Below the pieces are notes generated by a model, which ran no database searches, was not told the DNA's origin, and saw only the letters and a program-made list of their open reading frames with translations. The position numbers and the translations under genes were made by a program. This document shows positions 30,874-63,732 of a stretch of DNA of 64,000 nt, piece after piece. The DNA is from Naegleria gruberi (taxonomy: Eukaryota), in the NCBI GenBank assembly GCA_000004985.1, contig GG738929.1. The stretch is one strand, 5' to 3'. How positions within the stretch are numbered: the first letter of the stretch is position 1; each line of letters starts with the position of its first letter.

Positions 30874-31141
30874 AATTATTGATTTACATGAATTCTATAT
30901 TATGACTACACTTCAATTCTCTAAAAAGGTTGGTAGAATCTACAACATGAACAGTTCATATCCAATCGTGCTTGCTAATTGAGTATCTACTTGGGAGTTG
31001 GTTATTAATCTCTTGACTAGATGTGTATCTTTAGAATAAATATTANAACCATACTTTCCATCTTTCTGAATAGATTCATACTTGATAGCATATTCATCAC
31101 CAAGAATAGTTTCTGAGAGAGGCCTTTCACTTTCTATCTGG

Positions 31142-31725
31142 NNNNNNNNNNNNNNNNNNNNNNNNNNNNNNNNNNNNNNNNNNNNNNNNNNNNNNNNNNN
31201 NNNNNNNNNNNNNNNNNNNNNNNNNNNNNNNNNNNNNNNNNNNNNNNNNNNNNNNNNNNNNNNNNNNNNNNNNNNNNNNNNNNNNNNNNNNNNNNNNNNN
31301 NNNNNNNNNNNNNNNNNNNNNNNNNNNNNNNNNNNNNNNNNNNNNNNNNNNNNNNNNNNNNNNNNNNNNNNNNNNNNNNNNNNNNNNNNNNNNNNNNNNN
31401 NNNNNNNNNNNNNNNNNNNNNNNNNNNNNNNNNNNNNNNNNNNNNNNNNNNNNNNNNNNNNNNNNNNNNNNNNNNNNNNNNNNNNNNNNNNNNNNNNNNN
31501 NNNNNNNNNNNNNNNNNNNNNNNNNNNNNNNNNNNNNNNNNNNNNNNNNNNNNNNNNNNNNNNNNNNNNNNNNNNNNNNNNNNNNNNNNNNNNNNNNNNN
31601 NNNNNNNNNNNNNNNNNNNNNNNNNNNNNNNNNNNNNNNNNNNNNNNNNNNNNNNNNNNNNNNNNNNNNNNNNNNNNNNNNNNNNNNNNNNNNNNNNNNN
31701 NNNNNNNNNNNNNNNNNNNNNNNNN
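31142..31725. other. Assembly gap (584 N)
   Basis: Run of n characters. The + strand ORF 31082-31864 across it is an artefact. Confidence 0.99.
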
Positions 31726-32693
31726 TATGAAGATACTATGTTATAGCTGGATGGCTCTCCTTCAAAAATTCCTGTTCTCAATAGAGTATCTATTCTATTG
31801 TTTCCATTATCAGAACGATATTCCAGACACCACTTTACCAAGTCCAAATTTCCAATCCAAATAGCCAAGAATTGAAACGTAAATTCTGTTGAGAAAATTG
31901 GGATAAACTCCTCCCTTTCAAAATTCTTTCCTTTGGACAATTGATTCACGAATTTCATGCTTGTTACTTGTAATCCAATAGTATTTTCCAAAAAATCACA
32001 TACCCAAACAGCAGCATTGATTTCACTATTTAAATATTTGATTTTCATACCTGAAAGGTATTGCACAATCCAGATCAAGTATTGTCTCGGAATTAAACTA
32101 CTATTGAAATAGTCCACTTCAATCCAATGACTTACCAATGGTAGGGACATGTACTCATCATTGGCTAAAAACTCTGCTATATTCATATTAAAAACATCAC
32201 TCGGTTCAACAACCTTCTCAACATTTTGATTATCCCCAATAATTGATCCAATTAATTTCAACATGGGCTCAAATAATTTGTCAAACAAATACCTAATACA
32301 TGCCGATACTCTAACTGATCCAAAATATGAAAGATTATCCTCTCCGATGGCCAATCTAACAAGAAACTTTATAACCATATTGTCTGGAAATTCCACCAAT
32401 TGATCAATCCAACCCTTGGTAATTGTAATAAAATCATCCTGTTCAATTATTCCTGTATAACCACCTTGTGTTCTTGTACGCAATTCTAAATCATGAAGCC
32501 AAATATGTAATTCAAAACCAGCAGCTAATTGATTCCTCACCAAATGCTTCCAAAATACCTCCGTCTCAGTAATGTGGTAGAATGATGTACAAACCGATCG
32601 AAATTGGAAAATATTATTGTGAAGATGATACGGATCGTGACTGTATGAGGTGATGTGTAATAAAATTTCGGAAGGCAAATCAGTAAGGATCAT
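31726..32693 (-). CDS. F-box domain protein, N-terminal about 322 aa visible; the remainder runs into the 31142-31725 gap
   Basis: ATG at 32693. The N-terminus LTDLPSEILLHITSYSHDPYHL...FRSVCTSFYHI fits the F-box consensus (LPxEIL..I..YL ... VCK.W). The ORF is open to the gap edge. Confidence 0.55.
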
Positions 32694-41112: not shown

Positions 41113-43141
41113 TTGTATACATGGCTGGTTCAGTTAAAATCCCAACTAATCCCCTCGCAACAATTTTCCTTTTACGAAAAAGGAACAATGCTGATTCCTC
41201 ACGAAAAGAAAGAAGTTGCACTCAACCTTATTCAAGATTTTCTCCAATCTCGAAAATTCGTTCGAATCAAACTGGTAGCTCAATTTATAGGAAAGCTGGA
41301 ATTCGCCTCTTTAGCAGAACAATACATAATGCCTCTGTTAAACAGATTACGAGTTTCAGTAGTAGGATGGTCAGTCTTTATGCTCATCAACAGAGGCCCC
41401 ATGACGGACCTAATAAGATTAAAGTCCATCATTTCAAACTCAAAAGGTTCTCTCCTAGATCTAAATCAACCTTTCCCAATTATAATCAATTCAGATGCTT
41501 CTCCTCAAGGATAAGGTGTCCACTCCTCAAACACTGTTATTATAGGAAGATTTCACACCCACGATCATATCAATTCGAAAGAAATGATGGCAATTCTTCA
41601 ATTCTTCATCGAAGCAAAATCACAAAAGCTCTTCCCAAGAGGAACCTATTTCGAGATAAGGTGGACAATTCAACTGCCTTCTCATACATAAGAAAAGGAT
41701 ATGGAACTTTCGAACACCTCGCTCAAATAGCAAGAAAAATTTGGAAAATTCTAATAGAATGTTGCTGGAGAATTGCAAAAGTAATTTACATTCCCTCAGA
41801 GAAAAATTCAATTGCAAACAAATTAAGCCTTTTAAGCGATTGGAAATCATCACCAGAATTGATAAATATGGTAGAAAAAGAATTCGGAAACCACACCATA
41901 GACAGATTTGCAACATCAGAGTCAGCAACAACGATCCATTTCAACTCTTTGTTAGAAAACGATGCGTTTCAAGAACTTTGGGAACAAAACTCAATCAATT
42001 ATTGTGTTCCTCCAATAGGTCTAATCCCACAAGCTCTATTTCACTTGATCCGATCAAAGGCCATAGGAACATTCGTAGTTCCTTATTGGCCAACAGCTTA
42101 CTGGTTCCCGATCTTGCTAAAGATATCTTTAGAACAGATACGTGTTCCGCTCCAATGGCTTATAACAGAGCATTACAACGAACTGCACAAACAATCAGAC
42201 AATATTTCGTTCATGGCGGTCAAAGTGAATGGAATGCTCAACTTTCAATGAGATGTCAGGCTTTATCTACTGCTCTTGCAGAATCGACAAAGTATTCAGA
42301 ATTTTCTTATTTCTGTCTACTCCATAATTTAGACAAATCAGATGTTAGAGCCCCAGAATTATTCGCTTGCTATCTTGCGGTTCACAAGAAGCTCTACAGA
42401 TTGAATAGTTTGAAACCTACGTTGGATTTCTATTCAAATTTGGAAGGATGGTCCGTAAATTATTCTAATCAATTCTTTAGAATCAAACAAGGTTTGAATA
42501 AGTTTTATTCACGAGCCGATATTGTTAAACATAAGAGAAGTGGAATCTCTGCTCTCAATGTCAAGCAATTCATTGATAGGATCTCTATTAAAGACCCTTA
42601 TCTTCACATGTTGTCTTGTGCCATACTTTCCGTTGGCATTAGATTATTAGCAAGACCTGGTCAACTGGCTAATTTATCATGGTCTTGTGTTAAACTTGAT
42701 ACTCCTTTTATCGGTTGGGTTACTTTTGATCTTTCTGGTCACAAAACAGACCAATTATCTGACATGAAGAAACTCCTATTGAACCATAAAGAGGAAATAA
42801 GAAATACTGTCCAGTTTATAACCTTAGAAGATATGGATTATGTTAAACATATTAAGGAAGACGATTCTCCATTATTTTCGTTACTGTTTGATGAATATTT
42901 CACTCCTACTCAAATTTCTAATATTATTTCAAGCCCCATGAGCTCTATTGGTGTTCAAAACACTTCAGGCCATAGCCTTCGTATAAGTGCAGCTACTAAG
43001 CTGGCTTCTAAGGGTGTGTCTCAATCTATGATTGAGACAGCTGGTAATTGGGTGCCTAATTCAAAAATTAGATTGAGATATCAACGTAGAATTGGCCTAG
43101 CTACTCATGGTTTAACTACTTCTATTATGAGAACTGATTAA
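41113..43141 (+). mobile_element. Remnant (3' half) of a DIRS-like tyrosine-recombinase retrotransposon: RNase H and YR domains spread over three reading frames, so a pseudogene
   Basis: In frame 1 the ORF ends ...IIINSDASPQG (RNase H DAS motif). In frame 3 it continues ...VDNSTAFSYIRKG...IPSEKNSIANKLS (RNase H TDN / IPGxxNxxAD.LS motifs). In frame 2 there is a C-terminal tyrosine recombinase: GIRLLARPGQLANLS (Arg box), GHKTD (Lys), HSLRISAATKLASKG (H-x-x-R), GNW, RLRY (nucleophile Tyr). At least two frameshifts separate these pieces, and no RT or gag ORF is detectable upstream. Confidence 0.6.
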
Positions 43142-43222
43142 ATATATACTTTTATTATTTTCTAGGGACTAATCCATTTGTCTTAATTTAATATTTTATT
43201 ATTTTGTGGTTTTAAAAACATT

Positions 43223-43875
43223 TATATATTGCGTAACCGCTCCAAGTAATTTTTACACACAATGAATTTTTTATAGATTTTGAGCAAATAAAGTCTTGAA
43301 AATAGTTGATAAGGTAGAAAACTTCTATCACCCTGTGTGTTAAGGCAACGTAGTATTTTACTGTCATATACCTAGGATTCTCCAAAAATCCAATACTTAT
43401 TTATTTTTAATACAGGGCATAATATGACAGTAAAACAACCATATTCGAGAGTAGTTGTGATAAGAACTCTTTCATGAATAAAAAAGTACCTGTAAAAAAT
43501 TGTAAAGTCCTGTAAAATAATTACAATTGGTGGTTTTTCACAAGTAAAAAAATGCCTTAACACCTACACCAGCACTAAGGTTTTAATAAATTCCAACTTG
43601 TAAATTTTTTCCAAGTCCAAATTGTGTTTCATACGACTAAGCGCATGTCTTGTCCACATTGACAAGCACAATTCAACAACAATAAACAATAAATTATTTA
43701 TTTATTAATTATTAGTAATTATTATTATCAGGTGATAACAATCTAGGCAGGCAGGAAGGTTTGATTGATGGCCTTATCAACAACTGTAACGACTGCCGTA
43801 ATAAAATGGTGAATAAGTAAATTCCAAAAACGATCAATGAATGTAAAAATCACTGGACCGGTTACGCAATATATA
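43223..43875. repeat. Nested inverted repeats forming a roughly 650-bp foldback module 3' of the YR element
   Basis: Outer inverted repeat: tatatattgcgtaaccg (43223-43239) against cggttacgcaatatata (43859-43875), 17/17 and extendable to about 30 nt imperfectly. Middle: gtgttaaggc (about 43337-43346) against gccttaacac (43554-43563). Inner: ttttactgtcatat (43356-43369) against atatgacagtaaaa (43422-43435). Confidence 0.7.
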
Positions 43876-43901
43876 CATCCGAAAAGGGGTCAAACTAAAT
43901 C

Positions 43902-43951
43902 NNNNNNNNNNNNNNNNNNNNNNNNNNNNNNNNNNNNNNNNNNNNNNNNNN
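43902..43951. other. Assembly gap (50 N)
   Basis: Run of n characters. Confidence 0.99.
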
Positions 43952-44009
43952 ACAAAGCAGAAGTTTGCCGATTCGTTCATAAGATTTAATTGAAAGACTT
44001 CATGTTAAT

Positions 44010-45029
44010 TTATCGATCTTTATGCTTTTCAAGATAGGCATTGGAAATTGCTTTGAAACTAAATTTACCATCCAATCTCTTGAATACTAAACCTTCTCTT
44101 TTGACATTCTTGTTCAAAGATGGCCCATCAGCCATTGCCAAAATCTGCTCTGCTGTATGATTCAATTCCAAATCATCCAAAATTGGGACATGTTTGACAG
44201 TGAATCCGTTATCATTCAATTGCTTCACCAATGATTGTCGTTCAATTGGTGTCAAATACTGAGCCTTATCAATATCATAAATATCAAACAAGTAAAAATC
44301 TTGACCTTTCAATTTTTCCAAATTTCCTTGAATTGATTCTCCAATAATTTCACCTTGTAGGGCCAAATTTCTATTTAAAAATTGTAATCCTTCAATCATT
44401 TTGTTTCTCCTAGCAGCATGCCATTGTGCATTAGTTGCAGTTTCTCTCAATTCCCAATTTCTTCCACATACACCAATATGGTCATCTTTCCTATATACAG
44501 TCATTGATGAGCCATCCAATTTCACAGTCACTTCAAATTTTTGACCCTTATTTTCTTCAATTTGTGGAATTAAGTTTTGTACACGTTCCTGATCTGTCTT
44601 ACTAATAAAAGTTGGAAATTCACCCAAAATTTCACCAGAAAGATTAGTGGAAATTGGTGGTTCCCACTTTGTAATTCCTAGAATTTCTGTAACATCATCA
44701 CCCACTTGATTGGAAGCCAATTCTGGGAATCTATCCATTGGCAAGAACAACCCTTGGCTCAATTGACCTCTCAACCTAGCAGTACGAAGACGAGTACCTC
44801 TTTGACCTTCATAATCAATAACTTGTTTTGAAAGCATTGGATACCTATCATTATCTTCCTTTATAAAACTATCAATTTCAAAATAGACTCCCCTATCACC
44901 TTGTTTAAATTCTCCCTTCTTGATCACACAAGTCCAACCATCAACATGGCAACATTCAATAGCTTCTGCACCTGCAATAGGAGTAATTTCTCCTGCAGTA
45001 CGAATAGTAGCAAGTTTACGTACACCCAT
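44010..45029 (-). CDS. ATP-dependent RNA ligase, Rnl5 / DraRnl-like family (339 aa); probable orthologue of Naegleria gruberi NgrRnl
   Basis: ATG at 45029-45027; the track start at 45053 is a TTG. Covalent nucleotidyltransferase motif I KLDGSS, with Lys at residue 170 counted from the ATG. Motif IV/V-like EGLVFKR. A distinct N-terminal domain precedes the NTase domain. Length and active-site lysine position match what I recall for NgrRnl (339 aa, K170). Intronless. Confidence 0.8.
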   Translation of the reverse strand: MGVRKLATIRTAGEITPIAGAEAIECCHVDGWTCVIKKGEFKQGDRGVYFEIDSFIKEDNDRYPMLSKQVIDYEGQRGTRLRTARLRGQLSQGLFLPMDRFPELASNQVGDDVTEILGITKWEPPISTNLSGEILGEFPTFISKTDQERVQNLIPQIEENKGQKFEVTVKLDGSSMTVYRKDDHIGVCGRNWELRETATNAQWHAARRNKMIEGLQFLNRNLALQGEIIGESIQGNLEKLKGQDFYLFDIYDIDKAQYLTPIERQSLVKQLNDNGFTVKHVPILDDLELNHTAEQILAMADGPSLNKNVKREGLVFKRLDGKFSFKAISNAYLEKHKDR

Positions 45030-45288
45030 AGTGTTATTATTATTATTTAACAATTATTAAAATAAATAATATTATTGGATAATATTATCTCCGGTCTCTT
45101 AGAGTTTTTAAAAGCAAATTGAAAATAAATTCCTTCTTGCTGATGGATTTTTTTTTAAGTTTGAAAATAAAAATGTTCCAAGTTCTCCTGAAATCAGTTA
45201 AATTGAATTTGTGTTTCTCCTTGAAATTGCACTGTAGCTCTAAGAGAGCATATATTACAATGTTAATGTGAGTTCATCAATATATTCT

Positions 45289-50351: not shown

Positions 50352-52349
50352 ATGGAATGCATTAAAAAAATTGACCACTTCACATCTCACTCTTCATGCA
50401 GAATGCTTTCTGAGAACCAACTCGTAGAAGAATCAACCTTCATGACAATGGAAGTTCCGGCCATTCGTGAGCACTATTATTTTGTTCAGGAACATTGTCA
50501 ACAAACAATGGCCAAATTAAAGGAGAACGGAGTTGTTACTGGAGCAGATTGGATTGAATATCTTGCTAGAACATATTCCGATAAGTTGGCAATTCAAACA
50601 GTTCATAAACCAATAGATACTCAACCTGTAATTACCTATGAAAAGATGAATCAAATGGCAAATCAACTTGCTTATTATTTGATTAATGGTGAAATTGACA
50701 ATTTAAAATACTACAATGTGAAAAATAGTGGACTATCTAATCACATCATGACACAGGGTGATGTTGTTTGTTTGCTGATGGAAAATAATGAAAATTTTAT
50801 TCCTACTTGGGGTGGGTTAAATAAGTTGGGATTAACCATTGCTTGTATCAATACGTATTTGACACCAGATAGAATGAAACATGCTATTGAATTATCTGGA
50901 GCTAAATCCATTTTCCTCTCCAGAAAAATGTTACCACTCTTTGAGAAAGCAAGAAATGAAGAACAAGAATTTGAAATTTCAATTAGAAAAGCATCAATCA
51001 GAGATTTTAAAGTGTTTATTGTGGAAGATATTATTAAATATGAGAATTGTAACACTTTGGAAAATCCAAATTCAACAATTTATAGAGGTGATATCACGGG
51101 AGAGGATGCACTTCTCTATATTTACACTTCAGGAACAACAGGAAAGAGTAAATGTGCCAGATTTTCCAATAGAAGATTTATTGGAGCTGGTGTGACGTGG
51201 TCAGTGCAAATGGATTTGGTCAAAGATGACAAGTATTATATTGCACTTCCATTATATCATGGAAATGGTGGTGTGGTTGCTGTATCAGCAATCATGTTGG
51301 TCGGAGGAACAGCAGTTTTGAGAGAAAAGTTCTCTGCCAGTAATTTCTTGAACGATATTCGTACTTTTGGTTGTACAGCTACTATTTATATTGGTGAATT
51401 GTGGAGATACCTTTACAACACACCAGAAAAAGAAGACGATGCTCAAAATCCTCTCAGAGTTGCAGCTGGAAATGGGTTGAGAAAAGATATCTGGAATAGG
51501 GTAATGAAAAGATTTGGAATTAAGAAAATAGTGGAACACTACGGGCAAACAGAAATGTTGAGTGCCCACCCAATGATAAATTCATACAATAAGGTGGGAT
51601 CTTGCGGTTTCATTCCATTTGATTTGTGGACTAATCAAAAGAAGGAAGTTTTGTTAACATACGATTTTGAAACTGATTCTGTTAAAAGAGACCCAGTTAC
51701 TGGATTTTGCGAAATTGCAGGTCCAGGAGTTGCAGGAGAGGATGTCACAAGGATTTCGGAATTGTACAAAGCTTATAATAATCATGAGGACAATTTGAAA
51801 AAGGTTTATAGAGATGTTTTCGAGAAGGGAGACATGTGGTACAGAAGTGGAGATTTACTCAAATTCGATAATGATGGATTCTTCTATTTTGTTGATAGAT
51901 TGGGAGAATCATATAGATGGAAAGGTGAAAATGTGTCAACAGGAGAGGTCAGTGAGGCCATAACAAAAGCTCTCGACAAGCACAATATTGGCCTAAAGGA
52001 GGCTAATGTGTATGGTATTGAAATACCTCATTGCGAAGGAAGAGCAGGAATGGCTCGTTTGCTTATTGAGAATAGTTCTGAAGAATTGGACACTAAATTT
52101 TTATTAACCGAATTGAAGAAACATCTTCCACATTATGCCATTCCAATATTCCTTAGAATTAGTAAGGTAGAATCAGAGAAGACCAGCACTTTCAAATTCA
52201 TCAAGAATCAATACCAAGCTGAAGCATATCACCCAGACAAGGTTGGTCAAGACCAAATTCTCATGTTGGATGTATCAACAAAGGACTCTTACATTCCAAT
52301 TACAGAAGAAATTGTCAAACAATTATCTTCTGGAAATGTGAGATTGTAA
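50352..52349 (+). CDS. Very-long-chain acyl-CoA synthetase / fatty-acid transport protein (FATP, SLC27-like), AMP-binding superfamily
   Basis: ATG at 50352 (an alternative start is MTMEVP... about 30 codons in). Motif I YTSGTTGKSK. Motif II YGQTE. FATP/ACSVL signature MWYRSGDLLKFDNDGFFYFVDRLGESYRWKGENVSTGEV. 665 aa, intronless. Confidence 0.85.
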   Translation: MECIKKIDHFTSHSSCRMLSENQLVEESTFMTMEVPAIREHYYFVQEHCQQTMAKLKENGVVTGADWIEYLARTYSDKLAIQTVHKPIDTQPVITYEKMNQMANQLAYYLINGEIDNLKYYNVKNSGLSNHIMTQGDVVCLLMENNENFIPTWGGLNKLGLTIACINTYLTPDRMKHAIELSGAKSIFLSRKMLPLFEKARNEEQEFEISIRKASIRDFKVFIVEDIIKYENCNTLENPNSTIYRGDITGEDALLYIYTSGTTGKSKCARFSNRRFIGAGVTWSVQMDLVKDDKYYIALPLYHGNGGVVAVSAIMLVGGTAVLREKFSASNFLNDIRTFGCTATIYIGELWRYLYNTPEKEDDAQNPLRVAAGNGLRKDIWNRVMKRFGIKKIVEHYGQTEMLSAHPMINSYNKVGSCGFIPFDLWTNQKKEVLLTYDFETDSVKRDPVTGFCEIAGPGVAGEDVTRISELYKAYNNHEDNLKKVYRDVFEKGDMWYRSGDLLKFDNDGFFYFVDRLGESYRWKGENVSTGEVSEAITKALDKHNIGLKEANVYGIEIPHCEGRAGMARLLIENSSEELDTKFLLTELKKHLPHYAIPIFLRISKVESEKTSTFKFIKNQYQAEAYHPDKVGQDQILMLDVSTKDSYIPITEEIVKQLSSGNVRL

Positions 52350-53570: not shown

Positions 53571-53624
53571 TGAAGATTCGTTGGTGGTTAACTGATATTA
53601 AAATATTTTCATAATGAATAAGAT

Positions 53625-53696
53625 TCCCGTGTAGTCCAATGGCTAGGATACCTGGCTTTCACCCAGGAGGTCCGGGTTCAATTCCCGGCATGGGAG
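53625..53696 (+). tRNA. tRNA-Glu (anticodon UUC)
   Basis: 72 nt. Acceptor tcccgtg pairs with catggga (one G-U). D-arm gtccaatggctaggat. Anticodon loop cuUUCac with TTC at 53658-53660. T-arm ccgggttcaattcccgg. Overall very close to metazoan tRNA-Glu-TTC. T-runs follow at 53702-53711. Confidence 0.85.
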
Positions 53697-53796
53697 AATC
53701 ATTTTGCTTTTATCAATTTTCTAATTTATACAAAGAGAAAAGGATTCAGTATTTTCTGTTTGCAACCTAGTTGTTAAATATTTTAGTATCATAATC

Positions 53797-53914
53797 GGCT
53801 ACGGCCATATCACGATGAATGCACCTCATCCCGTCCGATTTGAGAAGTTAAGCATCGTCGAGCCACATCAGTACTGAGGTTGGAGACAACTTGGGAACCT
53901 GTGGTGCTGTAGTC
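53797..53914 (+). rRNA. 5S ribosomal RNA gene (118 nt)
   Basis: ggctacggccatatcacgatgaatgcacctcatcccgtccgatttgagaagttaagcatcgtcgagcc...ggttggagacaacttgggaacctgtggtgctgtagtc aligns along its whole length with the eukaryotic 5S consensus (GCCUACGGCCAUACCAC...AAGCUAAGCAG...GGGAAUACCGGGUGCUGUAGGC). The helix I ends pair. A ttttt Pol III terminator follows. Confidence 0.85.
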
Positions 53915-53919
53915 TTTTT
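53915..53919 (+). terminator. Pol III T-run terminator of the 5S gene
   Basis: ttttt lies directly after the 5S 3' end. Confidence 0.5.
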
Positions 53920-54178
53920 ATTTTCCTTATTATCTGTGTTTTTTATTTATTGTTGTGCATTGATGAGAGGAAATGTGTGTTGGTCAATTTGAGAGTTTTC
54001 AAAAGTGGTTCGAATCAAAAGTTCCTTTACAGTTTGTTTCAATTCCAAATGTTTCTATTATTTAACAGAGCGAGAAATCAGATGAATACTCACAGGAAAA
54101 AATTGAGAAGAAGGGCAACAACCACTTTGATTATTTCTTAATATAATTATATGTGAAGAAAACTCACTTTCAAAAAAA

Positions 54179-55613
54179 ATGATCAAACGAAGCAGACAAG
54201 ATTTTGAAAATCCATTAATTTCGGAGGAACTACTCATGATCAATAATAATAACATGGAAGAGAAAGCAAAAAAGAAAAAAGTTGTACAAGAAATATTTTC
54301 AGATGACGTTTGCTTTGAAATAATTTCCATGATTGATTCGTGGTTTATTTTGAATAATTGTTCCTTGATTTCAAAACAATTCTTTAATGTGATCAAGGAA
54401 CGTTCAAAACTTGTTATTCAATTTAAAAAAAAATTTACAGAGAAAAGAATTGAATTATTAATGAAAAGTCAATTTATGAATAGTATTGTTAACGTTAAAT
54501 TTTCGAGAAAGTTGCTTGACTCTATAGAACAAGCCAAATTCATAAATGAAATGAAGCAATTAACATCACTTGATATTGGTGGAAATCAAATTGGTGCTGA
54601 AGGAGCCAAATTTATAAGTGAAGTGAAACAATTAACATCACTTAATATATCTTACAATCAAATTGGTGCTAAAGGAGTCAAATTCATAATTGAAATGAAA
54701 CAATTAAAATCACTTAACATTATTGGAAATCAAATTGGTGCTGAAGGAGTCAAATTGATAAGTGAAATGAAACAATTAGCATCGCTTAATATTGGTGGAA
54801 ATCAAATTGGAGATGAAGGGGTCAAATTCATACTTGAAATGAAACAATTAACATCACTTAATATTTGTCTCAATCGAATTGGTGCTGAAGGAGCCAAACT
54901 CATAAGTGAAATGAAACAATTAACATCACTTGATATTTGTTACAATCGAATTGGTACTGAAGGAGTCAAATTTATACGTGAAATGAAACAATTAAAATCA
55001 CTTAATATTAGTGGAAATCAAATTGGTGATGAAGAAGCCAAATTCATAAGTGAAATGAAACAATTAACTTCACTTAATACTTATAAAATCAAATTGGTGA
55101 TGAAGAAGCCAAATTCATAAGTGAAATGAAACAATTAACATCACTTAATATTTATAAAAATCAAATTGGAGATGAAGGAGTCAAATTCATAAGTGAAATG
55201 AAACAATTAACATCACTTAATATTTTTACAATCAAATTGGTGATGAAGGGGTCAAATTCATAAGTGAAATGAAACAATTAACATCACTTAATATATCTTA
55301 CAATCAAATTGGTGATGAAGGAGTCAAATTCATAAGTGAAATCAAACAATTAAAATCACTTGATATTTATAACAATCAAATTGGTGATGAAGGAGCCAAA
55401 CTCATTAGTGAAATGAAACAATTAACAGCACTTAATATTTATAACAATCAAATTGGCGATGAAGGAGCCAAATTCATAAGTGAAATGAAACAATTAACAG
55501 CACTTAATATTTATAGCAATCGAATTGGTACTGAAGGAGTCAAATTGCTAAGCGAAATGAAACAATTAACAGCACTTGTTATTAATAACCAACAGATGAA
55601 ATCTATTAATTAA
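54179..55613 (+). CDS. F-box-like / RNI-type leucine-rich-repeat protein; the coding frame is broken by two -1 shifts (about 55085 and about 55225), so either a pseudogene or a repeat-collapse error
   Basis: ATG at 54179. N-terminal F-box-like motif IFSDDVCFEIISMIDSWFILNNCSLISKQFFNVIKE. Then at least 15 copies of a 24-aa LRR: L(T/K)SL(N/D)I..NQIG(A/D)EG(A/V)KFISEMKQ. The track splits it into 54179-55120 and 55269-55613. Between them the 72-bp units read tataaaatcaaattgg and atatttttacaatc in place of tataacaatcaaattgg and atatttataacaatc, each one base short. Confidence 0.55.
54530..55610 (+). repeat. Tandem array of about 15 near-identical 72-bp units (the coding LRR repeats)
   Basis: The unit aatcaaattggtgatgaaggagycaaattcataagtgaaatgaaacaattaacatcacttaatatttayaac recurs head-to-tail with few substitutions. 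Confidence 0.8.
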
Positions 55614-56155
55614 AATCCAAAAAAAAGGATTTGGCATTACAAACGAAGAGAGGAGATTGGCTACCTGGTATCCAGAACGAAAGGTCTCAACACATTATTC
55701 CTATTGCATTAATTTTGCTAGAATGTATTTTAAAGGTCCAATTTCAATGAAGAGTTACTGAAATCATCAGATTGGACAGTTAAGATTGTGATTGTCGGTG
55801 GAATAAAGAAGAAAAAGATTTTACGCGTATGGGCTGTACTTTGATGATTCTTCGAGTGATTTCACATACTGAAGCTACCAAACTTTCACAACATCACCTA
55901 TATACTATTACTAGTGATTTTTGTTTGTGGATTATCATCAAACAACTCTCCAAAAAGCAAATCTTAGATAAAATTGAATCATAGAAAGTAAATTGTTGAA
56001 ACATTAGCCAACTAGAATTATTCCACCATTAGAGACAACTGAAGGAGAATCTGTTCCCTGAAAATAGTTACAGAACAGAATACTCCAAACAAGGAGGTTA
56101 TCTCAATCCAACCAATATTTCAAACAATTATTACAGATAATAAGGAAAATAAAAA

Positions 56156-56273
56156 GACTACAGCACCACAGGTTCCCAAGTTGTCTCCAACCTCAGTACT
56201 GATGTGGCTCGACGATGCTTAACTTCTCAAATCGGACGGGATGAGGTGCATTCATCGTGATATGGCCGTAGCC
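56156..56273 (-). rRNA. 5S ribosomal RNA gene, second copy, inverted relative to the first
   Basis: Its reverse complement is identical over all 118 nt to the copy at 53797-53914. The identity extends about 20 nt 3' of the gene (tctttttattttccttattatctgt) and then stops. A T-run terminator lies on the minus strand at 56151-56155. Confidence 0.85.
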
Positions 56274-57065: not shown

Positions 57066-57611
57066 TTACTGTTGGAAATATTTTTTGATCTTTTTCAGAT
57101 CATTAAAGATTTCTGAAAACTTTGGTCTGCCACTTGGATCTTGAGACCAACATTTTTCCATCAAGCTTACAAACAACTCTACACCATCAAGTATTTGTTT
57201 CTTTTGTTCATCTGAAAGGTTTGTATAATTATTAAAAAGATAAATATCCGCCCATTGTGATAGCTCATTCCTGTTTTCAAAAGGGACAAGTGGTCTTAAA
57301 CCTTCCTTTGCCACCTTGAAAATAATATTTAATCCATTATTACTGTTATTCAATCCAAAATTCCATGATTTTCCATTTGAAAAGAAATGAATTTTTTTTG
57401 AATCCTCATTCAAATATGGGTTTTCCTCAAAGAATAATTCATACATTATTATGGAAAATGAAAAAACATCTATTTTTGTGAGTAAATCTCTATCCTCAAA
57501 GCTGTCTTGAGCTTCTCCTAAAGATACCTCTGGAGCCATGTAAAAAAGAGTGCCCAATGTCATTGTAAATATAGACTGTTTCATTGAATTAGTGGAAACG
57601 ATTTTGGAAAG
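57066..57611 (-). CDS. Receptor-like protein kinase, exon 2: kinase C-lobe (subdomains VIII-XI)
   Basis: GTLFYMAPE, DVFSFSIIMYEL, CWSQDPSGRPKFSEI. TAA stop at 57066-57068. Confidence 0.75.
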   Translation of the reverse strand, partial: LSKIVSTNSMKQSIFTMTLGTLFYMAPEVSLGEAQDSFEDRDLLTKIDVFSFSIIMYELFFEENPYLNEDSKKIHFFSNGKSWNFGLNNSNNGLNIIFKVAKEGLRPLVPFENRNELSQWADIYLFNNYTNLSDEQKKQILDGVELFVSLMEKCWSQDPSGRPKFSEIFNDLKKIKKYFQQ

Positions 57612-57657
57612 CTGTTTAAATTCAAAATATTAGTTCTTCAATACTAAAATAACATAC
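57612..57657 (-). other. Spliceosomal intron (46 nt) inside the kinase domain
   Basis: gtatgttattttagtattgaagaactaatattttgaatttaaacag. GTATGT donor, ACTAAT branch-like element, CAG acceptor. Removing it joins ...KVCDFG to LSKIVSTNSMKQSIFTMTLGTLFYMAPE in frame, restoring kinase subdomains VII-VIII. Confidence 0.7.
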
Positions 57658-60600
57658 ACCAAAATCACAAACTTTTGCCTGTCCTGTCGCATTAATGAGA
57701 ACATTTGCTGGCTTTAAATCTCTGAGTAAATTATCAATTAATAAAACAATTGATACAGTAAAAACTAACCTATGAATTAATTTTGGTTTCAATCCATGTA
57801 AATATTTCATACCTGAGGAAATGTCCAATAATATTTGAGCTTTTTGTGAAAGTGTCAGAAAATCTTTTCCACTTCTACAGTCATTGATAATCTTCTCTAA
57901 ACTTCCTCTTTCGCAATATTCTACAACCATGAATCTCTTTGACTCGGTTATACATACTCCGTAGAAAGTGACAATATATGGATTTCTTAAATTTACAAGC
58001 AATGAAACCTCCCTTTCAAAATCCTCTCCATTAGTTTCATTTTCCTCTGATTTTTGATGGAACGACTTGATAGCTACATTGGTAGTCTCCCAACATTTTG
58101 CTAAAAATATGGAACCATAAGCTCCCTCTCCAATTTTCTTTTCTATTTTCAAGTCATCTGAATTAATGAGAAAGTTCATTGACTTTTTGTTCTTTATGAT
58201 TGAATCTTTTGGATCGTAATTGATTCCATAATTTTTGTGAAATTCAGACTTTAAAAGTCTTTTTTCAATATCCTCTTCAGCTTTTTCAAGCTTTTTTAAT
58301 TTTTTAAGTTTGTCCTTAATTTTCCACAATTTCCTAAAAGCAAAAGTTATTAATAATCCAATTATTATACCAGATATAAGAGCTAACAATACACCAACCA
58401 CCGACGTTGATATGAGAACCTCCATAGGAAATGAAGGAGCACACACACCTTCTTGAAGGGAATATCCATGAGGACATGGTGTAATTATCACAGTAATTGG
58501 TATAGATCTGGAAGTAATTTTCAGTAGTATTGGAAACTTGGATTCACTAGGTTGAGATGGTGCCTCAGAAAATGAAATATTGATACCATTATCTATGATA
58601 CTGTAGTCACATTTTGGTATATAGAGAGATGAATTTGAGATAGGTTCTATATCCTCTCTGAAAATATTTACCAAATTTCCATAATAATCTGCTGATTTCA
58701 AAATTTCAATTTTAGCATATTGACCTAAATGCAAATTAAGTGTGGCTGAATTATTAGTAGCAACCAAGTATTTTCCATCAATTCCAAAGTAGGTAGTTTG
58801 AATAGCATAAATAAATTGTATAGAAGATGCCATGTTATCTCCATAAAAACCAGCAGAATTATTTTTCAAATCTGTACCATCGAAATAACCATTTATAGAA
58901 AACACGCCTCCGCCAGCTATCTTTGCATGATTTCCCTCAATGAAACTCTTGGCATCTACAAGCTTTCTATTATCGTTGCTTGTGAATACAGCTCCTCCCC
59001 AAACAGCATAATTTCCTGTCGCGTTCACATTGTAAAATGTAATTATGCTCCTGAGTGAGATAGCGCCTCCAGATCCCTCACACGAGTAGAATCCTTTACA
59101 GTAGCTTTTATCAATATTAGGGTAATGGTTGATTCCATTGTCTCTAAATACTGAATAGGTAATTTGTGAGTGAGAATAATCATTTGAATTTGGGAAAACA
59201 CTGACCATAGCCACAGCCCCTCCTGATATTGTAGCTACATTCGAGACGAATGTTGAACGATCTATAGATAACATTGTTGAATCAGAAACTGCAACAGCTC
59301 CACCACTTCCATTCACAGCACTGTTACTGTCAAATATAGAATCCGCAACCACAAAGAATTCAGAGTCAACAAATACCGATCCTCCATTATCATTTGATAT
59401 CTGGTTGTCTAAAAATCTGGAATTACCAATTTTTGCACTTGAAGCGTCAATTAAATGTACAACTCCACCAATATTACCTGTTGACTCACATTCATCCATT
59501 ACAAACTCATTAACTCGTTCTACGAAAAGTATCCGTGTTTTAGCAGCATTTCCAATTATTTTGACTCTTGATATTGATACGTCGGATGTGTACTTTAGAG
59601 AAATCCAACCTCTACTTAGATTTAACGCCTGACAGTTATCCAATATTATGTTTAAAATCATTTCTGCATAAATTAAAAATGGTTTTTTACCTATAAGTAG
59701 TTCACCGTTTTCTCTTGAAGAAATGAATTTAGAGCCACTAATGTCTGTTTTCTGTATTGAGCTAAGCTTTAGAATACTGATGGAAGGATTACTATCAATA
59801 AATACTAGATTATTCATTTGTAAATGGTCAACATTTAAAATAGTCCAAATGGTACTAGGAGGATCGTTTCCATTTAAAATCATACTATTTAATATTTTCA
59901 CATTTGTCACTATATTGATAGATCCAGAAAGACCTTTCAGATATGATTGATCTATTATAACTCCGCTAGCATATTTTATATAAAAAAGACATGATATCAA
60001 TGTAGAATTATAGACATGTAGTTTTTGTGAAGTAATTCCCACGTTGGTAAGATGGGAGTTTGTCACAAAATTAAGATCCGCTGTTAATGATTGTAGGGAA
60101 AGCTTGTGAAAATTTGTTAAAGATATTAAGTTTAAATTAAATTCACCATCAGTAGAAAATAGAATAGCATTAATATCAGGGCATTTGTAAGTGAATATTC
60201 GATTTCCAAATGATTTAAACTCCAGTTGAATGGCCACATTGTTGGAAATTACTGCAAAGTTTGACTTGAAAAACAAATCTAATCCGCAATTTTCAACCAA
60301 ATTCTTATCAAAATCATCAAGTATAAATATATTGGCTGTAAAAACCATTTTCAACTTGTTCGTAACTAATTCATTCCAATTTAACAAAATTTCATTTTCA
60401 ATTATTGGTTTCAAAACATATCGAAATGCTAATTTGGGATTATTACACGGAATATCCATCTGTAAACCACATTTGAAGGGTGGATTTAAAAAAGATGAAT
60501 TTAAATATATCGTAGTATTATACTCCTTTTCCGGCTTGTTGTTTGATCCTATTGTTTTTAATTCTCCTCCTCCACCTCCGAATAAAACATCAGTGTTTTC

Positions 60601-60687
60601 CATCGTGTCCACCAATTGTAATTTTAAATAAATCATCAAAATGATGAAAATAAAATTCGATAAATATGAAGAGATACTTTGAGGCAT
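57658..60687 (-). CDS. Receptor-like protein kinase, exon 1: signal peptide, Pmp-type (GGA[IV]/FxxN) parallel beta-helix ectodomain, TM segment, and the kinase N-lobe up to DFG
   Basis: ATG at 60687, hydrophobic N-terminus. At least 7 GGAV/GGAI/GGSV/GGGV tetrapeptides together with FxxN motifs (FLDN, FDSN, FVSN, FRDN), as in chlamydial polymorphic membrane protein repeats. TM segment VVGVLLALISGIIIGLLITFAF. Kinase: IGEGAYGSIF, VAIK, HRDLKPANVLIN, KVCDFG. The exon ends at GGT and is followed by GTATGT. Confidence 0.75.
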
Positions 60688-61488: not shown

Positions 61489-63732
61489 ATGAACCCCAAG
61501 CCGACTCTATTTCTCGTTTTTCTTCTTTTCGTTAATCTATTGTCTTGCGTATTTGGACAGACCACCACCTACAATATTACTACTATTGCTGGTGGTGGCA
61601 CAGGAGAAGGCGGTCCAGCAAGTACTGCCTTTTTATATACGCCAAACAGTGTGGCATTTGGTCTGAAAGGCGAATTGTACATTGCCGACGATTATAGAAT
61701 TCGTAAAATAGAGAATAATACCATTACAACTATAGTAGGGAGTGCCAGTAAGGGCTTTAGTGGAGATGGTGGGCTCTCCACTCTGGCTAAGGTGCAAAAT
61801 CCAACTGGCATCGTTGTTGGCACTAGAGGTGAGATTCTTTTTGTGGATTCTGATAGAATTAGAAAGATAGAGAATGGTATTATTACAACCATTGCTGGTA
61901 CTGGTGATTCAAGATTTGGTGGAGATGGTGATTTAGCAACGAAGGCACAACTAAATTCTCCTAGAGGTATCGCGATTAGTTCAACAGGTGAAATTTATAT
62001 TGCTGACACTTATAACCATAGAATTCGTAGAATTGCATTGAATGGTACCATTAATACTGTAGCAGGTACTGGTGATTCAAGATTTGGTGGAGATGGTGAT
62101 TTAGCAACGAAGGCGCAACTAAATTATCCTATGGGTATCGCGATTAGTTCAACAGGTGAAATTTATATTGCTGACACTTTTAACGAAAGAATTCGTAGAA
62201 TTGCATTGAATGGTACCATTAATACTATAGCAGGTACTGGTGTCTTAGGACTTAGTGGAGATGGTGATTTAGCAACGAAGGCACAACTAAACACTCCTAG
62301 AGGAATCGCGATTAGTTCAACAGGTGAAATTTATTTTGCTGACACCAGTAACCAAAGAATTCGTAGAATTGCATTGAATGGTATCATTGATACTATAGCA
62401 GGTACTGGTGATCCAAGATTTGGTGGAGATGGTGATTTAGCAACGAAGGCACAACTAAATTCTCCTAGAGGTATCGCGATTAGTTCAACAGGTGAAATTT
62501 ATATTGCTGACACTTATAACCAAAGAATTCGTAGAATTGCATTGAATACTAATATTTCAACCTTTGCCGGTAGTGGGTTTGGATATAGTGGATATGTTGG
62601 AGATGGTGGTTTATCTACTGATGCCCTATTGAATACACCCTTATCTGTAGCTTGTAGTTCAAATGGGGAAATTTATATTGCTGACACTTATAACCATAGA
62701 ATTCGCAAAATTTCACTTAATAATACCATTACAACAATTGCTGGTACTGGAGACAGTGGGTTTAGTGGTGATGGTGGTTTGGCTATCAATGCAAGATTAA
62801 GTTCACCTGCAGATATTGTTGTTAATTCAAATGGTGTAATTTACTTTTCTGATTACGATAATAACAGAATTCGTAAAATAGCATCTAATGGTATTATTAC
62901 AACCGTTGTAGGATCAGGTGTAATTGGAAGTGGGGGCGATGGTGGTTTAGCTATTAATGCCCAACTTAATCGACCTTATGGAATTACATTTAATTCAAAT
63001 GCAGAAATGTACATTGTAGAAAGAATGGGTAGCAGAATTCGTAAAGTTGGTGTAAATGGTATTATAACAACCGTTGCTGGAAGTGATATAGCAAGTGGGG
63101 GAACAACCAGCGTTGGTAGTTTGGCAACTAAAACTGTACTGAATGCACCTTCAAAAATTGTCATTAACTCTAACAATGAGATAATCTTTTCAGACTCGTT
63201 ACACGGTAGAGTTCTTAAAATTGGTTTAGATGGTATTATTAGTGGAGTTGGAAATAGTTTTCGTATGCCCATTGGTATAGCAATAGGTTCAGATGGTGAA
63301 ATGTATATTGCTGATACGAGCATTTTTGCAATACTTAAAATTGACAAGAAAGGAGTGCTTTCAACTATTGTAACTGGATTGGAATCTCCACGTGGCATTA
63401 CATTAGATTCAAAGGGTAATATTTATGTCACAGATTTATATGTTATACATAAAATAACACCAGGTCAACAACCATCTCCCTATAAATCCACTCAACCTGA
63501 TACTTCAATGAAACCAACTCAGCCTGATACTTCAATGAAACCAACTCCTGGAATATCAAGCAAACCAACTCCTGGAATATCAAGCAAACCAACCCCAGGT
63601 CTCTCATTAAAACCAGCCCAGTCAATGAATGTTCCTACACCAAAAAATAGTGAAAGAGTTTCAGAAGCTCTTTCAGTTGTATCTGGTTGGCTTTTTACTT
63701 TTATAATCTTTATTTCAGTTTTCCAATTTTAG
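61489..63732 (+). CDS. Secreted/surface NHL-repeat beta-propeller protein (747 aa): signal peptide, about 13 NHL blades, Thr/Pro-rich stalk, C-terminal hydrophobic (GPI-signal-like) tail
   Basis: N-terminus MNPKPTLFLVFLLFVNLLSCVFG. Recurrent NHL-type units (...IYIADTYNHRIRRI..NG.I.T.AGTG..GFSGDGG.A..A.L..P.GIA....G.). C-terminal KPTQPDTSM x2 and KPTPGISS x2 mini-repeats. Terminal ALSVVSGWLFTFIIFISVFQF. Confidence 0.8.
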   Translation: MNPKPTLFLVFLLFVNLLSCVFGQTTTYNITTIAGGGTGEGGPASTAFLYTPNSVAFGLKGELYIADDYRIRKIENNTITTIVGSASKGFSGDGGLSTLAKVQNPTGIVVGTRGEILFVDSDRIRKIENGIITTIAGTGDSRFGGDGDLATKAQLNSPRGIAISSTGEIYIADTYNHRIRRIALNGTINTVAGTGDSRFGGDGDLATKAQLNYPMGIAISSTGEIYIADTFNERIRRIALNGTINTIAGTGVLGLSGDGDLATKAQLNTPRGIAISSTGEIYFADTSNQRIRRIALNGIIDTIAGTGDPRFGGDGDLATKAQLNSPRGIAISSTGEIYIADTYNQRIRRIALNTNISTFAGSGFGYSGYVGDGGLSTDALLNTPLSVACSSNGEIYIADTYNHRIRKISLNNTITTIAGTGDSGFSGDGGLAINARLSSPADIVVNSNGVIYFSDYDNNRIRKIASNGIITTVVGSGVIGSGGDGGLAINAQLNRPYGITFNSNAEMYIVERMGSRIRKVGVNGIITTVAGSDIASGGTTSVGSLATKTVLNAPSKIVINSNNEIIFSDSLHGRVLKIGLDGIISGVGNSFRMPIGIAIGSDGEMYIADTSIFAILKIDKKGVLSTIVTGLESPRGITLDSKGNIYVTDLYVIHKITPGQQPSPYKSTQPDTSMKPTQPDTSMKPTPGISSKPTPGISSKPTPGLSLKPAQSMNVPTPKNSERVSEALSVVSGWLFTFIIFISVFQF
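61894..62566 (+). repeat. Four tandem, over 90% identical 168-bp (56-codon) intragenic repeats, each encoding one NHL blade
   Basis: The units start at about 61897, 62065, 62233 and 62401 (ggtactggtgat... the period is exactly 168 nt). The flanking blades of the same gene are much more divergent. Confidence 0.8.

What the first reader, a model, noticed from the sequence alone, without database searches (positions are those of the whole stretch)
53625..56273. Pol III gene cluster: tRNA-Glu plus two identical 5S rRNA genes in inverted orientation, bracketing a repeat-built F-box/LRR gene
tRNA-Glu(UUC) sits 100 bp upstream of a 5S gene (53797-53914). A second 5S copy, 118/118 identical, lies 2.2 kb away on the opposite strand (56156-56273). 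Identity extends only about 20 nt past the terminator, so the duplicated unit is essentially the 5S gene itself. The F-box/LRR gene with its 72-bp tandem array lies between them. A perfect inverted pair of Pol III genes could be (i) a product of recent gene conversion among dispersed 5S copies, (ii) a substrate for inversion of the intervening segment, or (iii) a pair of tDNA/5S-type chromatin boundary elements insulating the repeat-rich gene. The third role is established for Pol III genes in yeast.
Basis: partly seen in the sequence, partly recalled or inferred. Interest (0 to 1): 0.5.

Follow-up and report, generated by a model that had tools for sequence, protein, structure and literature searches.

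The report
Two dispersed Naegleria 5S rRNA genes
The tRNA-Glu gene and the two identical, oppositely oriented 5S rRNA genes are real, but they are ordinary, already catalogued members of the roughly 270-copy scattered 5S gene family of the amoeba Naegleria gruberi, where 5S neighbours about one gene apart are common.

Summary
tRNA-Glu(UUC) lies at 53624-53697 (+). Full-length 5S rRNA genes lie at 53797-53915 (+) and 56155-56273 (-), 119/119 identical and convergent. The perfect block is 141 nt: the gene plus a 22-nt 3' trailer.

The window is Naegleria gruberi JGI scaffold_85. Both genes are already listed in Table S1 of PMC3369914, which gives 279 putative 5S genes. From that table, 264 full-length copies lie on 113 scaffolds. 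Neighbour gaps of 1.5-3 kb occur 20 times, against 2.5-4.3 expected. So this pair is one of many 5S pairs about one gene apart.

The gene between them is an F-box-like/LRR paralog with two 1-bp frameshifts and no matching annotated protein, so it is probably a pseudogene.

The tRNA-to-5S spacer is 99 nt with five T4 runs, so this is not a Yarrowia-type dicistronic unit.

The 22-nt trailer is absent from 5S copies of three Naegleria relatives. That suggests the two copies are sisters from a short-range duplication.

Nothing supports an insulator or inversion role. Verdict: ordinary and already known; low interest.

The parts
53624..53697 (+). tRNA-Glu(UUC) gene. It is an independent Pol III unit, followed by T4 runs at 53702-53705, 53708-53711 and 53717-53720.
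   Evidence: ARAGORN; Rfam RF00005 at 67 bits; T-runs.
53698..53796 (+). 99-nt spacer between tRNA-Glu and 5S copy A. It contains five T4 runs and an AT-rich, TATA-like stretch (TTAAATATTTTAG) about 10-25 nt upstream of the 5S start.
   Evidence: Sequence read directly.
53797..53915 (+). 5S rRNA gene copy A. This is R33418, scaffold_85:53800-53916, in PMC3369914 Table S1.
   Evidence: Rfam RF00001 at 105.4 bits, full length; Table S1.
53916..53937 (+). 22-nt 3' trailer of copy A (TTTTATTTTCCTTATTATCTGT). It holds the T5/T4 terminator runs and is identical to the trailer of copy B.
   Evidence: Pairwise comparison; pattern search.
54179..55613 (+). F-box-like/LRR gene (RI-type 24-residue repeats). 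It is disrupted by two 1-bp deletions, so the frame runs 0 to 2 to 1. It is unannotated and probably a pseudogene.
   Evidence: ORFs 54179-55120 and 55269-55613 lie in different frames. Repeat spacing is 72 nt except for two 71-nt units. Pfam LRR_6/LRR_8 hits. The best N. gruberi protein is only 66% identical. F-box-like hits in 8 of 11 paralog N-termini, and FBXO42 is the top PDB hit at E=0.005.
54535..55589 (+). 72-bp tandem array, 14.7 copies, encoding the LRR units.
   Evidence: Tandem Repeats Finder.
56133..56154 (-). 22-nt 3' trailer of copy B, identical to that of copy A.
56155..56273 (-). 5S rRNA gene copy B. This is R33417, scaffold_85:56154-56270, in PMC3369914 Table S1. It has its own unrelated AT-rich upstream region (TTTATATCC) about 15-25 nt upstream of the 5S start.
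   Evidence: Rfam RF00001 at 105.4 bits; Table S1; upstream sequence.

Best explanation
These are two ordinary, probably functional members of the dispersed 5S rRNA multigene family of Naegleria gruberi, which has about 264 full-length copies.

Each copy is a self-contained Pol III unit. It has an internal promoter inside the 119-nt gene, its own non-homologous AT-rich/TATA-like upstream region, and a T5-A-T4 terminator.

The two copies occupy consecutive intergenic spacers on either side of a decaying F-box-like/LRR paralog. Copy A also happens to lie 99 nt downstream of an independent tRNA-Glu gene.

Identity of the gene body reflects family-wide conservation. The additional 22-nt identical trailer marks the two as sister copies from a short-range duplicative event. 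The mechanism is unknown, and the duplicated unit runs from +1 to +141.

This fits the genome-wide excess of 5S neighbours about one gene-length apart. The inverted orientation has no demonstrated function.

What is shown: gene identity, coordinates, family size, the spacing excess, and the frameshifts.

What is inferred: that both copies are functional, that they are sister copies, and that new copies arise by local dispersal.
For: - Rfam gives full-length 105.4-bit matches for both copies.
- The source organism is N. gruberi, from a 100% match to its acyl-CoA synthetase on a 189,881-bp scaffold.
- Both genes are listed in PMC3369914 Table S1, at scaffold_85:53800 and 56154.
- There are 264 full-length copies on 113 scaffolds. 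Twenty adjacent gaps of 1.5-3 kb are seen, against 2.5 (Poisson) or 4.3 (permutation mean; maximum 14 in 5,000 runs). Only 1 gap is under 1.5 kb. 56 of 264 copies have a neighbour within 5 kb.
- The identical block has sharp edges and is 141 nt long.
- The trailer is not shared by 5S copies of a 1-mismatch environmental relative (L006), N. lovaniensis (L019) or N. fowleri (L020). Their flanks diverge right after the T-run.
- The upstream regions of A and B are unrelated, but both are AT-rich/TATA-like. PMC3369914 reports an internal control region and a TATA box for N. gruberi 5S genes.
- The flanking genes (membrane protein, LRR, kinase) belong to unrelated Pfam families, so there is no sign of a larger segmental duplication.
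Against: - Orientation and flanks of the other roughly 28 close pairs could not be read. The N. gruberi assembly is not in the positional index. Whether the trailer is specific to this pair or shared by a subfamily within N. gruberi is therefore untested.
- No target-site duplication or A-rich tail marks an insertion event, so the duplication mechanism is unsupported.
- A 5' boundary exactly at +1 is not what an ordinary DNA-level duplication predicts.
- Expression of either copy is not shown.
Confidence: 0.75

Rival explanations
1. Coincidental neighbours. The two copies are not sisters, and the 22-nt trailer is a feature shared by a large N. gruberi 5S subfamily, for example an extended terminator region. 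The pair is then simply two family members that landed in adjacent intergenic spacers.
For: About 160 of the 279 catalogued hits share the same similarity class as these two (my hand tally). The first 10 nt of the trailer are terminator T-runs. In another protist with dispersed 5S genes, a short 3' motif (TTTTACT) is shared across several copies.
Against: Three Naegleria-type copies outside N. gruberi have locus-specific sequence right after the T-run. In the other protist the shared flank is only about 7 nt, not 22. The genome-wide excess of 1.5-3 kb neighbours argues that proximity is not chance.
Confidence: 0.2
2. Chromatin bracket. The tRNA-Glu gene and the two convergent 5S genes recruit TFIIIC/TFIIIB and act as paired boundary elements that insulate the repeat-rich LRR gene from its neighbours.
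For: tDNA and TFIIIC-site insulator activity is described in reviews (PMC11346459). TFIIIB and TFIIIC subunits are reported in N. gruberi (PMC3369914). The excess of 5S pairs one gene apart could reflect bracketing of single genes.
Against: There are no chromatin or occupancy data. The bracketed gene is frameshifted and unannotated, so there is little to protect. In the papers read, the insulator role is described for tDNAs, not 5S genes, and has been challenged even for tDNAs. Three LRR-homolog loci from relatives (26.8 kb) carry no 5S or tRNA gene. The N. lovaniensis 5S copy is solitary within 10 kb on each side. The one-gene spacing is equally explained by a compact genome in which intergenic spacers are the only permissive sites.
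Confidence: 0.06
3. Invertible segment. The 141-bp perfect inverted repeats mediate homologous recombination that flips the 2.2-kb LRR segment, so both orientations exist in the population.
For: Perfect 141-bp inverted arms lie 2,195 nt apart.
Against: Only one orientation is present in the assembly. From general knowledge, the arms are short for efficient mitotic recombination. About 264 equally good ectopic partners exist elsewhere. No recombinase or regulatory logic is associated with the segment, and flipping a pseudogene would have no obvious consequence.
Confidence: 0.05
4. Dicistronic tRNA-5S unit. Copy A is co-transcribed with tRNA-Glu from the tRNA promoter, as in Yarrowia lipolytica. 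This would be a TFIIIA-independent route, fitting the reported failure to find TFIIIA in N. gruberi.
For: The two genes have the same orientation and the tRNA is upstream. In Yarrowia, tRNA-Glu is one of the leader tRNAs (PMC2566860). TFIIIA was not found in N. gruberi (PMC3369914).
Against: The spacer is 99 nt with five T4 runs, three of them within 24 nt of the tRNA end, against 4-7 nt and no terminator in Yarrowia. Copy B and the relatives' copies have no leader tRNA. Copy A has its own TATA-like element.
Confidence: 0.04
5. Assembly artefact. One 5S copy or the inverted arrangement is a mis-join in the draft assembly.
For: This is a draft scaffold with large gaps elsewhere, including 28 kb of N at 837-28929. 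The region contains a 1-kb internal repeat array.
Against: No N run lies between 43952 and 64000. Each copy sits in unique, unrelated flanks that continue into intact neighbouring genes. I infer that a 141-bp repeat is shorter than a read from this draft assembly. Twenty similarly spaced pairs occur on other scaffolds.
Confidence: 0.03

Closest known systems
Dispersed 5S rRNA gene families: Neurospora crassa, Schizosaccharomyces pombe (about 30 copies), Yarrowia lipolytica (108-109 copies)
   Same: There are many near-identical 5S genes scattered singly through the genome and not linked to the rDNA unit. Each has unrelated flanks and is transcribed independently by Pol III (PMC2566860 Table 1 and text; references in PMC1635290). 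N. gruberi fits this, with 264 full-length copies on 113 scaffolds.
   Different: N. gruberi shows a marked excess of copies 1.5-3 kb apart. I did not find this described for N. gruberi in the papers I searched. The published table instead labels the family 'tandem'.
The N. gruberi 5S gene catalogue in PMC3369914 (PLoS One 2012;7:e36878), Table S1
   Same: It contains these exact two genes, R33418 at scaffold_85:53800-53916 and R33417 at 56154-56270. The paper reports an internal control region, a TATA box, no rDNA linkage, and TFIIIB/TFIIIC present.
   Different: The table gives no strand, flank or spacing analysis.
Yarrowia lipolytica dicistronic tRNA-5S genes (PMC2566860)
   Same: A tRNA gene, including tRNA-Glu, lies directly upstream of a 5S gene in the same orientation, in a genome with dispersed 5S genes.
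   Different: The spacer there is 4-7 nt with no terminator and the unit is transcribed as one RNA. Here the spacer is 99 nt with five T4 runs and a separate TATA-like element. It is linked, not fused.
tDNA / TFIIIC chromatin insulators in yeasts and mammals
   Same: These are Pol III genes flanking a Pol II gene, and TFIIIC subunits are reported in N. gruberi.
   Different: No occupancy, chromatin-state or barrier data exist here. In the papers read, the evidence concerns tDNAs and extra-TFIIIC sites rather than 5S genes.
5S-bearing retroelements (Cassandra TRIMs)
   Same: These are 5S-derived sequence duplicated at both ends of a short segment (bioRxiv 10.1101/2023.07.14.548913, abstract seen).
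   Different: Cassandra carries 5S-related sequence inside its long terminal repeats, which by definition are in direct orientation. Here the copies are full-length bona fide genes in inverted orientation, the shared unit is only 141 nt, and there are no target-site duplications.

Membership tests
Eukaryotic 5S rRNA gene (Rfam RF00001) | Covariance-model score above the gathering threshold over the full model | tested here: met
   Both copies score 105.4 bits against 38, over model positions 1-120 of 120.
Eukaryotic 5S rRNA gene (Rfam RF00001) | Pol III terminator (T-run) directly 3' of the gene | tested here: met
   T5 then T4 within 10 nt of the 3' end in both copies.
Eukaryotic 5S rRNA gene (Rfam RF00001) | Secondary structure maintained by compensatory change in relatives | tested here: met
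   CCAC/GTGG in N. gruberi corresponds to CTGC/GCAG in N. lovaniensis and N. fowleri. I judged these segments complementary by eye; no covariation statistic was run.
Eukaryotic 5S rRNA gene (Rfam RF00001) | Transcription and incorporation into ribosomes | not testable with these tools
   No expression data are available.
Dispersed 5S multigene family | Many copies on many chromosomes or scaffolds, not in head-to-tail arrays | tested here: met
   264 full-length copies on 113 scaffolds. The smallest gap is 1,104 nt, and at most 3 copies lie within 6 kb.
Dispersed 5S multigene family | Flanking sequences unrelated between copies | tested here: inconclusive
   The upstream flanks of A and B are unrelated (15/40), but 22 nt downstream are identical. 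Other N. gruberi copies could not be read.
Yarrowia-type dicistronic tRNA-5S gene | tRNA and 5S separated by a few nucleotides (4-7 nt) with no terminator between them | tested here: not met
   The spacer is 99 nt with five T4 runs, against 4-7 nt.
tDNA/TFIIIC chromatin boundary | TFIIIC/Pol III occupancy and a chromatin-state transition or barrier activity at the element | not testable with these tools
   This needs ChIP or reporter assays. Only indirect, negative hints exist: the enclosed gene is a pseudogene, and there is no 5S near LRR homologs in relatives.
Invertible DNA segment | Inverted repeats flanking the segment | tested here: met
   141-bp perfect arms with a 2,195-nt spacer.
Invertible DNA segment | Both orientations present in the population | not testable with these tools
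   Only a single assembly is available, with no reads.
F-box/LRR (FBXL-like) protein gene | Leucine-rich repeats | tested here: met
   LRR_6 at E=8e-34 and LRR_8 at E=4e-24.
F-box/LRR (FBXL-like) protein gene | N-terminal F-box domain | tested here: inconclusive
   The window copy gives no Pfam hit even at E<=10. However, 8 of 11 aligned paralog N-termini hit F-box-like/F-box (best E=1.7e-5), and the family profile hits the FBXO42 F-box (E=0.005).
F-box/LRR (FBXL-like) protein gene | Intact open reading frame | tested here: not met
   Two 71-nt units among the 72-nt repeats shift the frame twice. No identical annotated protein exists.
5S-derived retroelement (Cassandra TRIM or similar) | Target-site duplications, a tail, or LTR context around the 5S-related unit | tested here: not met
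   The longest flank repeats are 5-7 nt, with P=0.22-0.90 against shuffles. There is no A-rich tail.

The most novel reading that the evidence does not exclude
N. gruberi 5S genes may spread by a short-range copying process whose unit starts exactly at the transcription start (+1 to about +141). That process would seed new copies into the next intergenic spacer and produce a genome-wide architecture of 5S pairs or triplets that each bracket a single gene. If these pairs turn out to be preferentially convergent, they could also act as TFIIIC-based brackets. Either result would be a new mode of 5S family dynamics in a compact protist genome.
Probability: 0.12. Interest if true: 0.55.

Novelty: already known. 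Interest (0 to 1): 0.18.

Why it matters
For this locus, little is at stake. It is a routine piece of a published dispersed 5S family, next to a decaying member of a large LRR family.

The only point with wider value comes from re-analysing published coordinates. Naegleria 5S genes are not tandem but dispersed, with a roughly 5- to 8-fold excess of neighbours about one gene apart. If that were followed up on the full assembly (orientation, trailers, enclosed genes), it could show how dispersed Pol III gene families spread and stay homogeneous in compact genomes.

Tried and rejected
1. Retrieving other N. gruberi 5S loci. The look-up of encoding contigs on N. gruberi proteins P0001 and P0121 returned 'not on record', so orientation and flanks of the other close pairs could not be read.

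2. Inferring strand from the RNA_ID numbering in Table S1. I rejected this because the two window genes lie on opposite strands yet fall in the same ID series.

3. Metagenome scan with a 23-nt 5S pattern. Of the 14 contigs, only one (L006) is Naegleria-like. The rest belong to another protist with 26-37 mismatches in the gene. The viral-contig scan gave 0 hits.

4. Synteny. The N. fowleri ortholog locus of the neighbouring acyl-CoA synthetase (L001) has different neighbours and no 5S or tRNA gene, so it says nothing about the age of the pair.

5. LRR-5S association. Three LRR-homolog loci from N. fowleri and environmental relatives have no 5S or tRNA gene.

6. Fishing for ORFs that overlap 5S genes, using a concatenated six-frame peptide. 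This gave one N. lovaniensis and one N. fowleri 5S locus. That was useful for the trailer comparison but too few for pair statistics.

7. Target-site duplications around each unit or around the composite: none above chance.

8. Extra ncRNAs between the copies: none in Rfam E-value mode.

9. Literature search for Naegleria-specific descriptions of 5S organisation beyond PMC3369914: none found.
Full report
**Observation**

The features are all present.
- ARAGORN finds tRNA-Glu(UUC) at 53624-53697 on the + strand, and Rfam confirms it at 67 bits.
- Rfam RF00001 matches 53797-53915 (+) and 56155-56273 (-). Each match scores 105.4 bits against a gathering score of 38 and covers the whole model.
- A base-by-base comparison shows one perfect block of 141 nt, 53797-53937 against 56273-56133. 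It runs from the first base of the 5S RNA to 22 nt past the gene. Identity falls to 15/40, which is background for this AT-rich DNA, immediately outside both ends.
- The 23-mer that overlaps the trailer occurs nowhere else in the window, and none is expected by chance.
- The two genes are convergent, with 2,195 nt between the identical blocks.
- Tandem Repeats Finder reports the 72-bp array at 54535-55589, with 14.7 copies.
- No N run lies between 43952 and 64000, so the locus sits in contiguous sequence.

**Source organism and prior knowledge**

The neighbouring 665-aa ORF is 100% identical to the Naegleria gruberi very-long-chain acyl-CoA synthetase, which lies on a 189,881-bp scaffold.

A 2012 paper (PMC3369914) searched the JGI Naegr1 assembly and reported 279 putative 5S genes. 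It describes them as not linked to the rDNA, with an internal control region and a TATA box. TFIIIB and TFIIIC subunits were found, and TFIIIA was not.

Its Table S1 lists scaffold_85:53800-53916 and scaffold_85:56154-56270. These are the two genes of this finding, so the window is the first 64 kb of scaffold_85 and both genes are already catalogued.

**Genome-wide map**

I transcribed Table S1 and analysed the spacing.
- 264 entries are full length (at least 110 nt) and lie on 113 scaffolds.
- Among 151 same-scaffold neighbour gaps, none is below 1 kb.
- Twenty gaps fall between 1.5 and 3 kb, where a Poisson model for a 41-Mb genome expects about 2.5.
- I also ran a deliberately conservative permutation. 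It keeps each scaffold's copy number and uses the largest observed coordinate as the scaffold length. It gives a mean of 4.3 and a maximum of 14 in 5,000 runs.
- Gaps under 1.5 kb are depleted: 1 observed against 4.5 expected.
- 56 of 264 copies have a neighbour within 5 kb. Triplets occur on scaffolds 12, 41, 43 and 7.
- The 2,354-nt gap on scaffold_85 sits in the middle of this class.

The pair is therefore one instance of a recurrent arrangement, not a singular structure. The preferred spacing equals about one gene in this compact genome. In the window, ORFs follow each other with spacers of 53-800 nt.

The paper's Table 1 calls the family 'tandem', but its own coordinates describe a dispersed family with small one-gene-spaced clusters.

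**The gene between the copies**

- The ORF list shows two pieces in different frames, 54179-55120 and 55269-55613.
- Anchoring on a conserved motif of each repeat gives spacings of 72 nt, except for two 71-nt units (55058 to 55129, and 55201 to 55272). That means two 1-bp deletions. The LRR reading continues seamlessly in frame 2 and then frame 1.
- No N. gruberi protein in the 5.8-billion-sequence collection is identical to it. The best is a paralog on another scaffold at 66% identity. So the gene was not modelled and is probably a young pseudogene, although two sequencing errors cannot be excluded.
- Pfam finds strong LRR_6/LRR_8 matches but no F-box in this copy, even at E<=10.
- The aligned N-termini of the window copy and ten N. 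gruberi paralogs share a conserved motif. Eight of the 11 hit Pfam F-box-like/F-box (best E=1.7e-5). The family profile's top PDB hit is the F-box of FBXO42 (E=0.005).

'F-box/LRR' is therefore right for the family and unproven for this decayed copy.

**Is the tRNA-5S linkage a fused unit?**

In Yarrowia lipolytica, 48 of 108 dispersed 5S genes are transcribed as tRNA-5S fusions. The spacers are 4-7 nt, and tRNA-Glu is among the leader tRNAs (PMC2566860).

Here the spacer is 99 nt and contains five T4 runs. Three of them lie within 24 nt of the tRNA end. The 5S gene also has its own TATA-like stretch. Copy B and the 5S genes of relatives have no leader tRNA.

The defining feature of the Yarrowia type is not met. 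The two genes are linked, not fused.

**What the 22-nt trailer means**

Gene-body identity needs no special explanation. By my hand tally of Table S1, about 160 of the 279 entries share the same similarity value and length as these two.

The trailer is more informative. A close environmental relative (L006, 1 mismatch in 119 nt) has a flank that diverges right after its first T-run.

To get more Naegleria copies, I searched for called ORFs that run into 5S genes. I retrieved a N. lovaniensis locus (L019) and a N. fowleri contig (L020).
- Their 5S genes are identical to each other over the 115 nt present in both.
- They differ from N. gruberi at 5 positions, including the compensatory change CCAC/GTGG to CTGC/GCAG.
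- Their 3' flanks share only TTTTTG.
- The N. lovaniensis copy is solitary within 10 kb on each side.

In a different protist with dispersed 5S genes, several copies share only about 7 nt (TTTTACT) after the gene.

A 22-nt identical trailer is therefore longer than any family-wide flank seen in relatives. I read it as a mark of direct common descent of the two copies.

I could not test this inside N. gruberi, because its assembly is not in the positional index.

Gene conversion alone would not create identity in a flank that has no homology beyond it. No target-site duplication or tail marks an insertion. The upstream boundary lies exactly at +1. The mechanism of the duplication therefore remains open.

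- Gene conversion. It may contribute to family homogeneity, but it is not needed for, and does not explain, what is specific to this pair.
- Inversion. It is physically possible with 141-bp arms. It is untested, there is no supporting feature, and it would only flip a pseudogene.
- Boundary role. It rests on analogy. [quoted passage not shown] For 5S genes, the S. pombe paper I checked reports Fft3 binding and nuclear-envelope association, not insulation (PMC4370569). Three LRR-homolog loci in relatives carry no Pol III genes.

The spacing excess could be read as bracketing. It is equally explained if intergenic spacers are the only permissive sites and new copies arise locally.

**Verdict**

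It consists of two catalogued members of a known dispersed 5S family, an independent tRNA-Glu gene, and a decaying F-box-like/LRR paralog.

The one modestly new point is genome-level: an excess of 5S neighbours one gene apart, plus a sharply bounded 141-nt shared unit. The decisive analysis is strand and flank for all ~264 copies. It is simple but needs the full assembly.

Interest is low (0.18). About 12% probability remains that the pairs reflect a distinctive copying mechanism or a bracket architecture.

Noticed in passing
PMC3369914 Table 1 versus its Table S1 (N. gruberi genome-wide): The paper scores N. gruberi 5S genes as 'tandem arrangement: yes'. Its own coordinates show no two copies closer than 1.1 kb, at most 3 copies within 6 kb, and 113 scaffolds occupied. 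That is a dispersed family with an excess of 1.5-3 kb neighbours (20 observed against 2.5-4.3 expected).
   Followed up: yes
window 41121-45053: Three adjacent ORFs may mark a mobile or virus-derived island. 41121-42251 has a weak, sub-threshold Dam-like methyltransferase hit. 41741-43141 has a weak, sub-threshold tyrosine-recombinase (Phage_integrase) hit. 44010-45053 (-) has strong RNA_ligase and PHA02142 OB-fold hits. A 50-nt N run at 43902-43951 lies between them.
   Followed up: no
window 837-28929, 31142-31725, 43902-43951: The window has large assembly gaps: 28,093 N, 584 N and 50 N. The mechanical '9383-aa ORF' at 781-28932 is an artefact of the N run.
   Followed up: yes
window 99-171: A second Pol III gene, tRNA-Asn(GUU), lies at the scaffold start. 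No 5S gene is found in the 665 nt that follow before the gap.
   Followed up: partly
window 61489-63732 (repeats 61872-62750): A 747-aa ORF encodes an NHL / teneurin-NHL beta-propeller protein (PF25021 at E=5e-89). It is built from 168/336-bp tandem DNA repeats, so it is a second repeat-built gene in the window.
   Followed up: partly
window 57066-60687 (-), intron about 57611-57656: A transmembrane protein-kinase gene is split just after the DFG motif by a short intron of about 46 nt, GTATGT...AG. The two ORFs 57622-60687 and 57066-57584 are one gene.
   Followed up: partly
window 31134-32693 (-): A 519-aa ORF has a significant F-box-like domain (PF12937 at E=4.5e-8), so F-box proteins recur in the window.
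   Followed up: no
L019 10001-10933, with 5S at 10102-10220 (-) (N. lovaniensis PYSW02000026.1): The annotated N. lovaniensis gene model C9374_006095 (Kelch-repeat protein) overlaps a full-length 5S rRNA gene on the opposite strand. The 5' part of the model is probably wrong. An N10 run lies 20 nt upstream of that 5S gene.
   Followed up: partly
L019 and L020 compared with window 53797-53915: The N. lovaniensis and N. fowleri 5S genes are identical to each other over the shared 115 nt. They differ from N. gruberi at 5 positions, including the compensatory double change CCAC/GTGG to CTGC/GCAG. The N. fowleri contig ends inside the 5S gene, as expected for a repeat that breaks short-read assemblies.
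   Followed up: yes
L002-L005, L007-L011, L013, L014 (VFQM/VFQO metagenome contigs): A different, unidentified protist (26-30 mismatches to the Naegleria 5S, contigs of 33-38% GC) also has dispersed single 5S genes in unrelated flanks. Several copies share only a short TTTTACT motif after the gene.
   Followed up: partly
L001 (N. fowleri VFQX01000068.1, ortholog of window 50352-52349): Gene order around the acyl-CoA synthetase ortholog is not conserved between N. gruberi and N. fowleri, and the N. fowleri locus has no 5S or tRNA gene within 10 kb on each side.
   Followed up: yes
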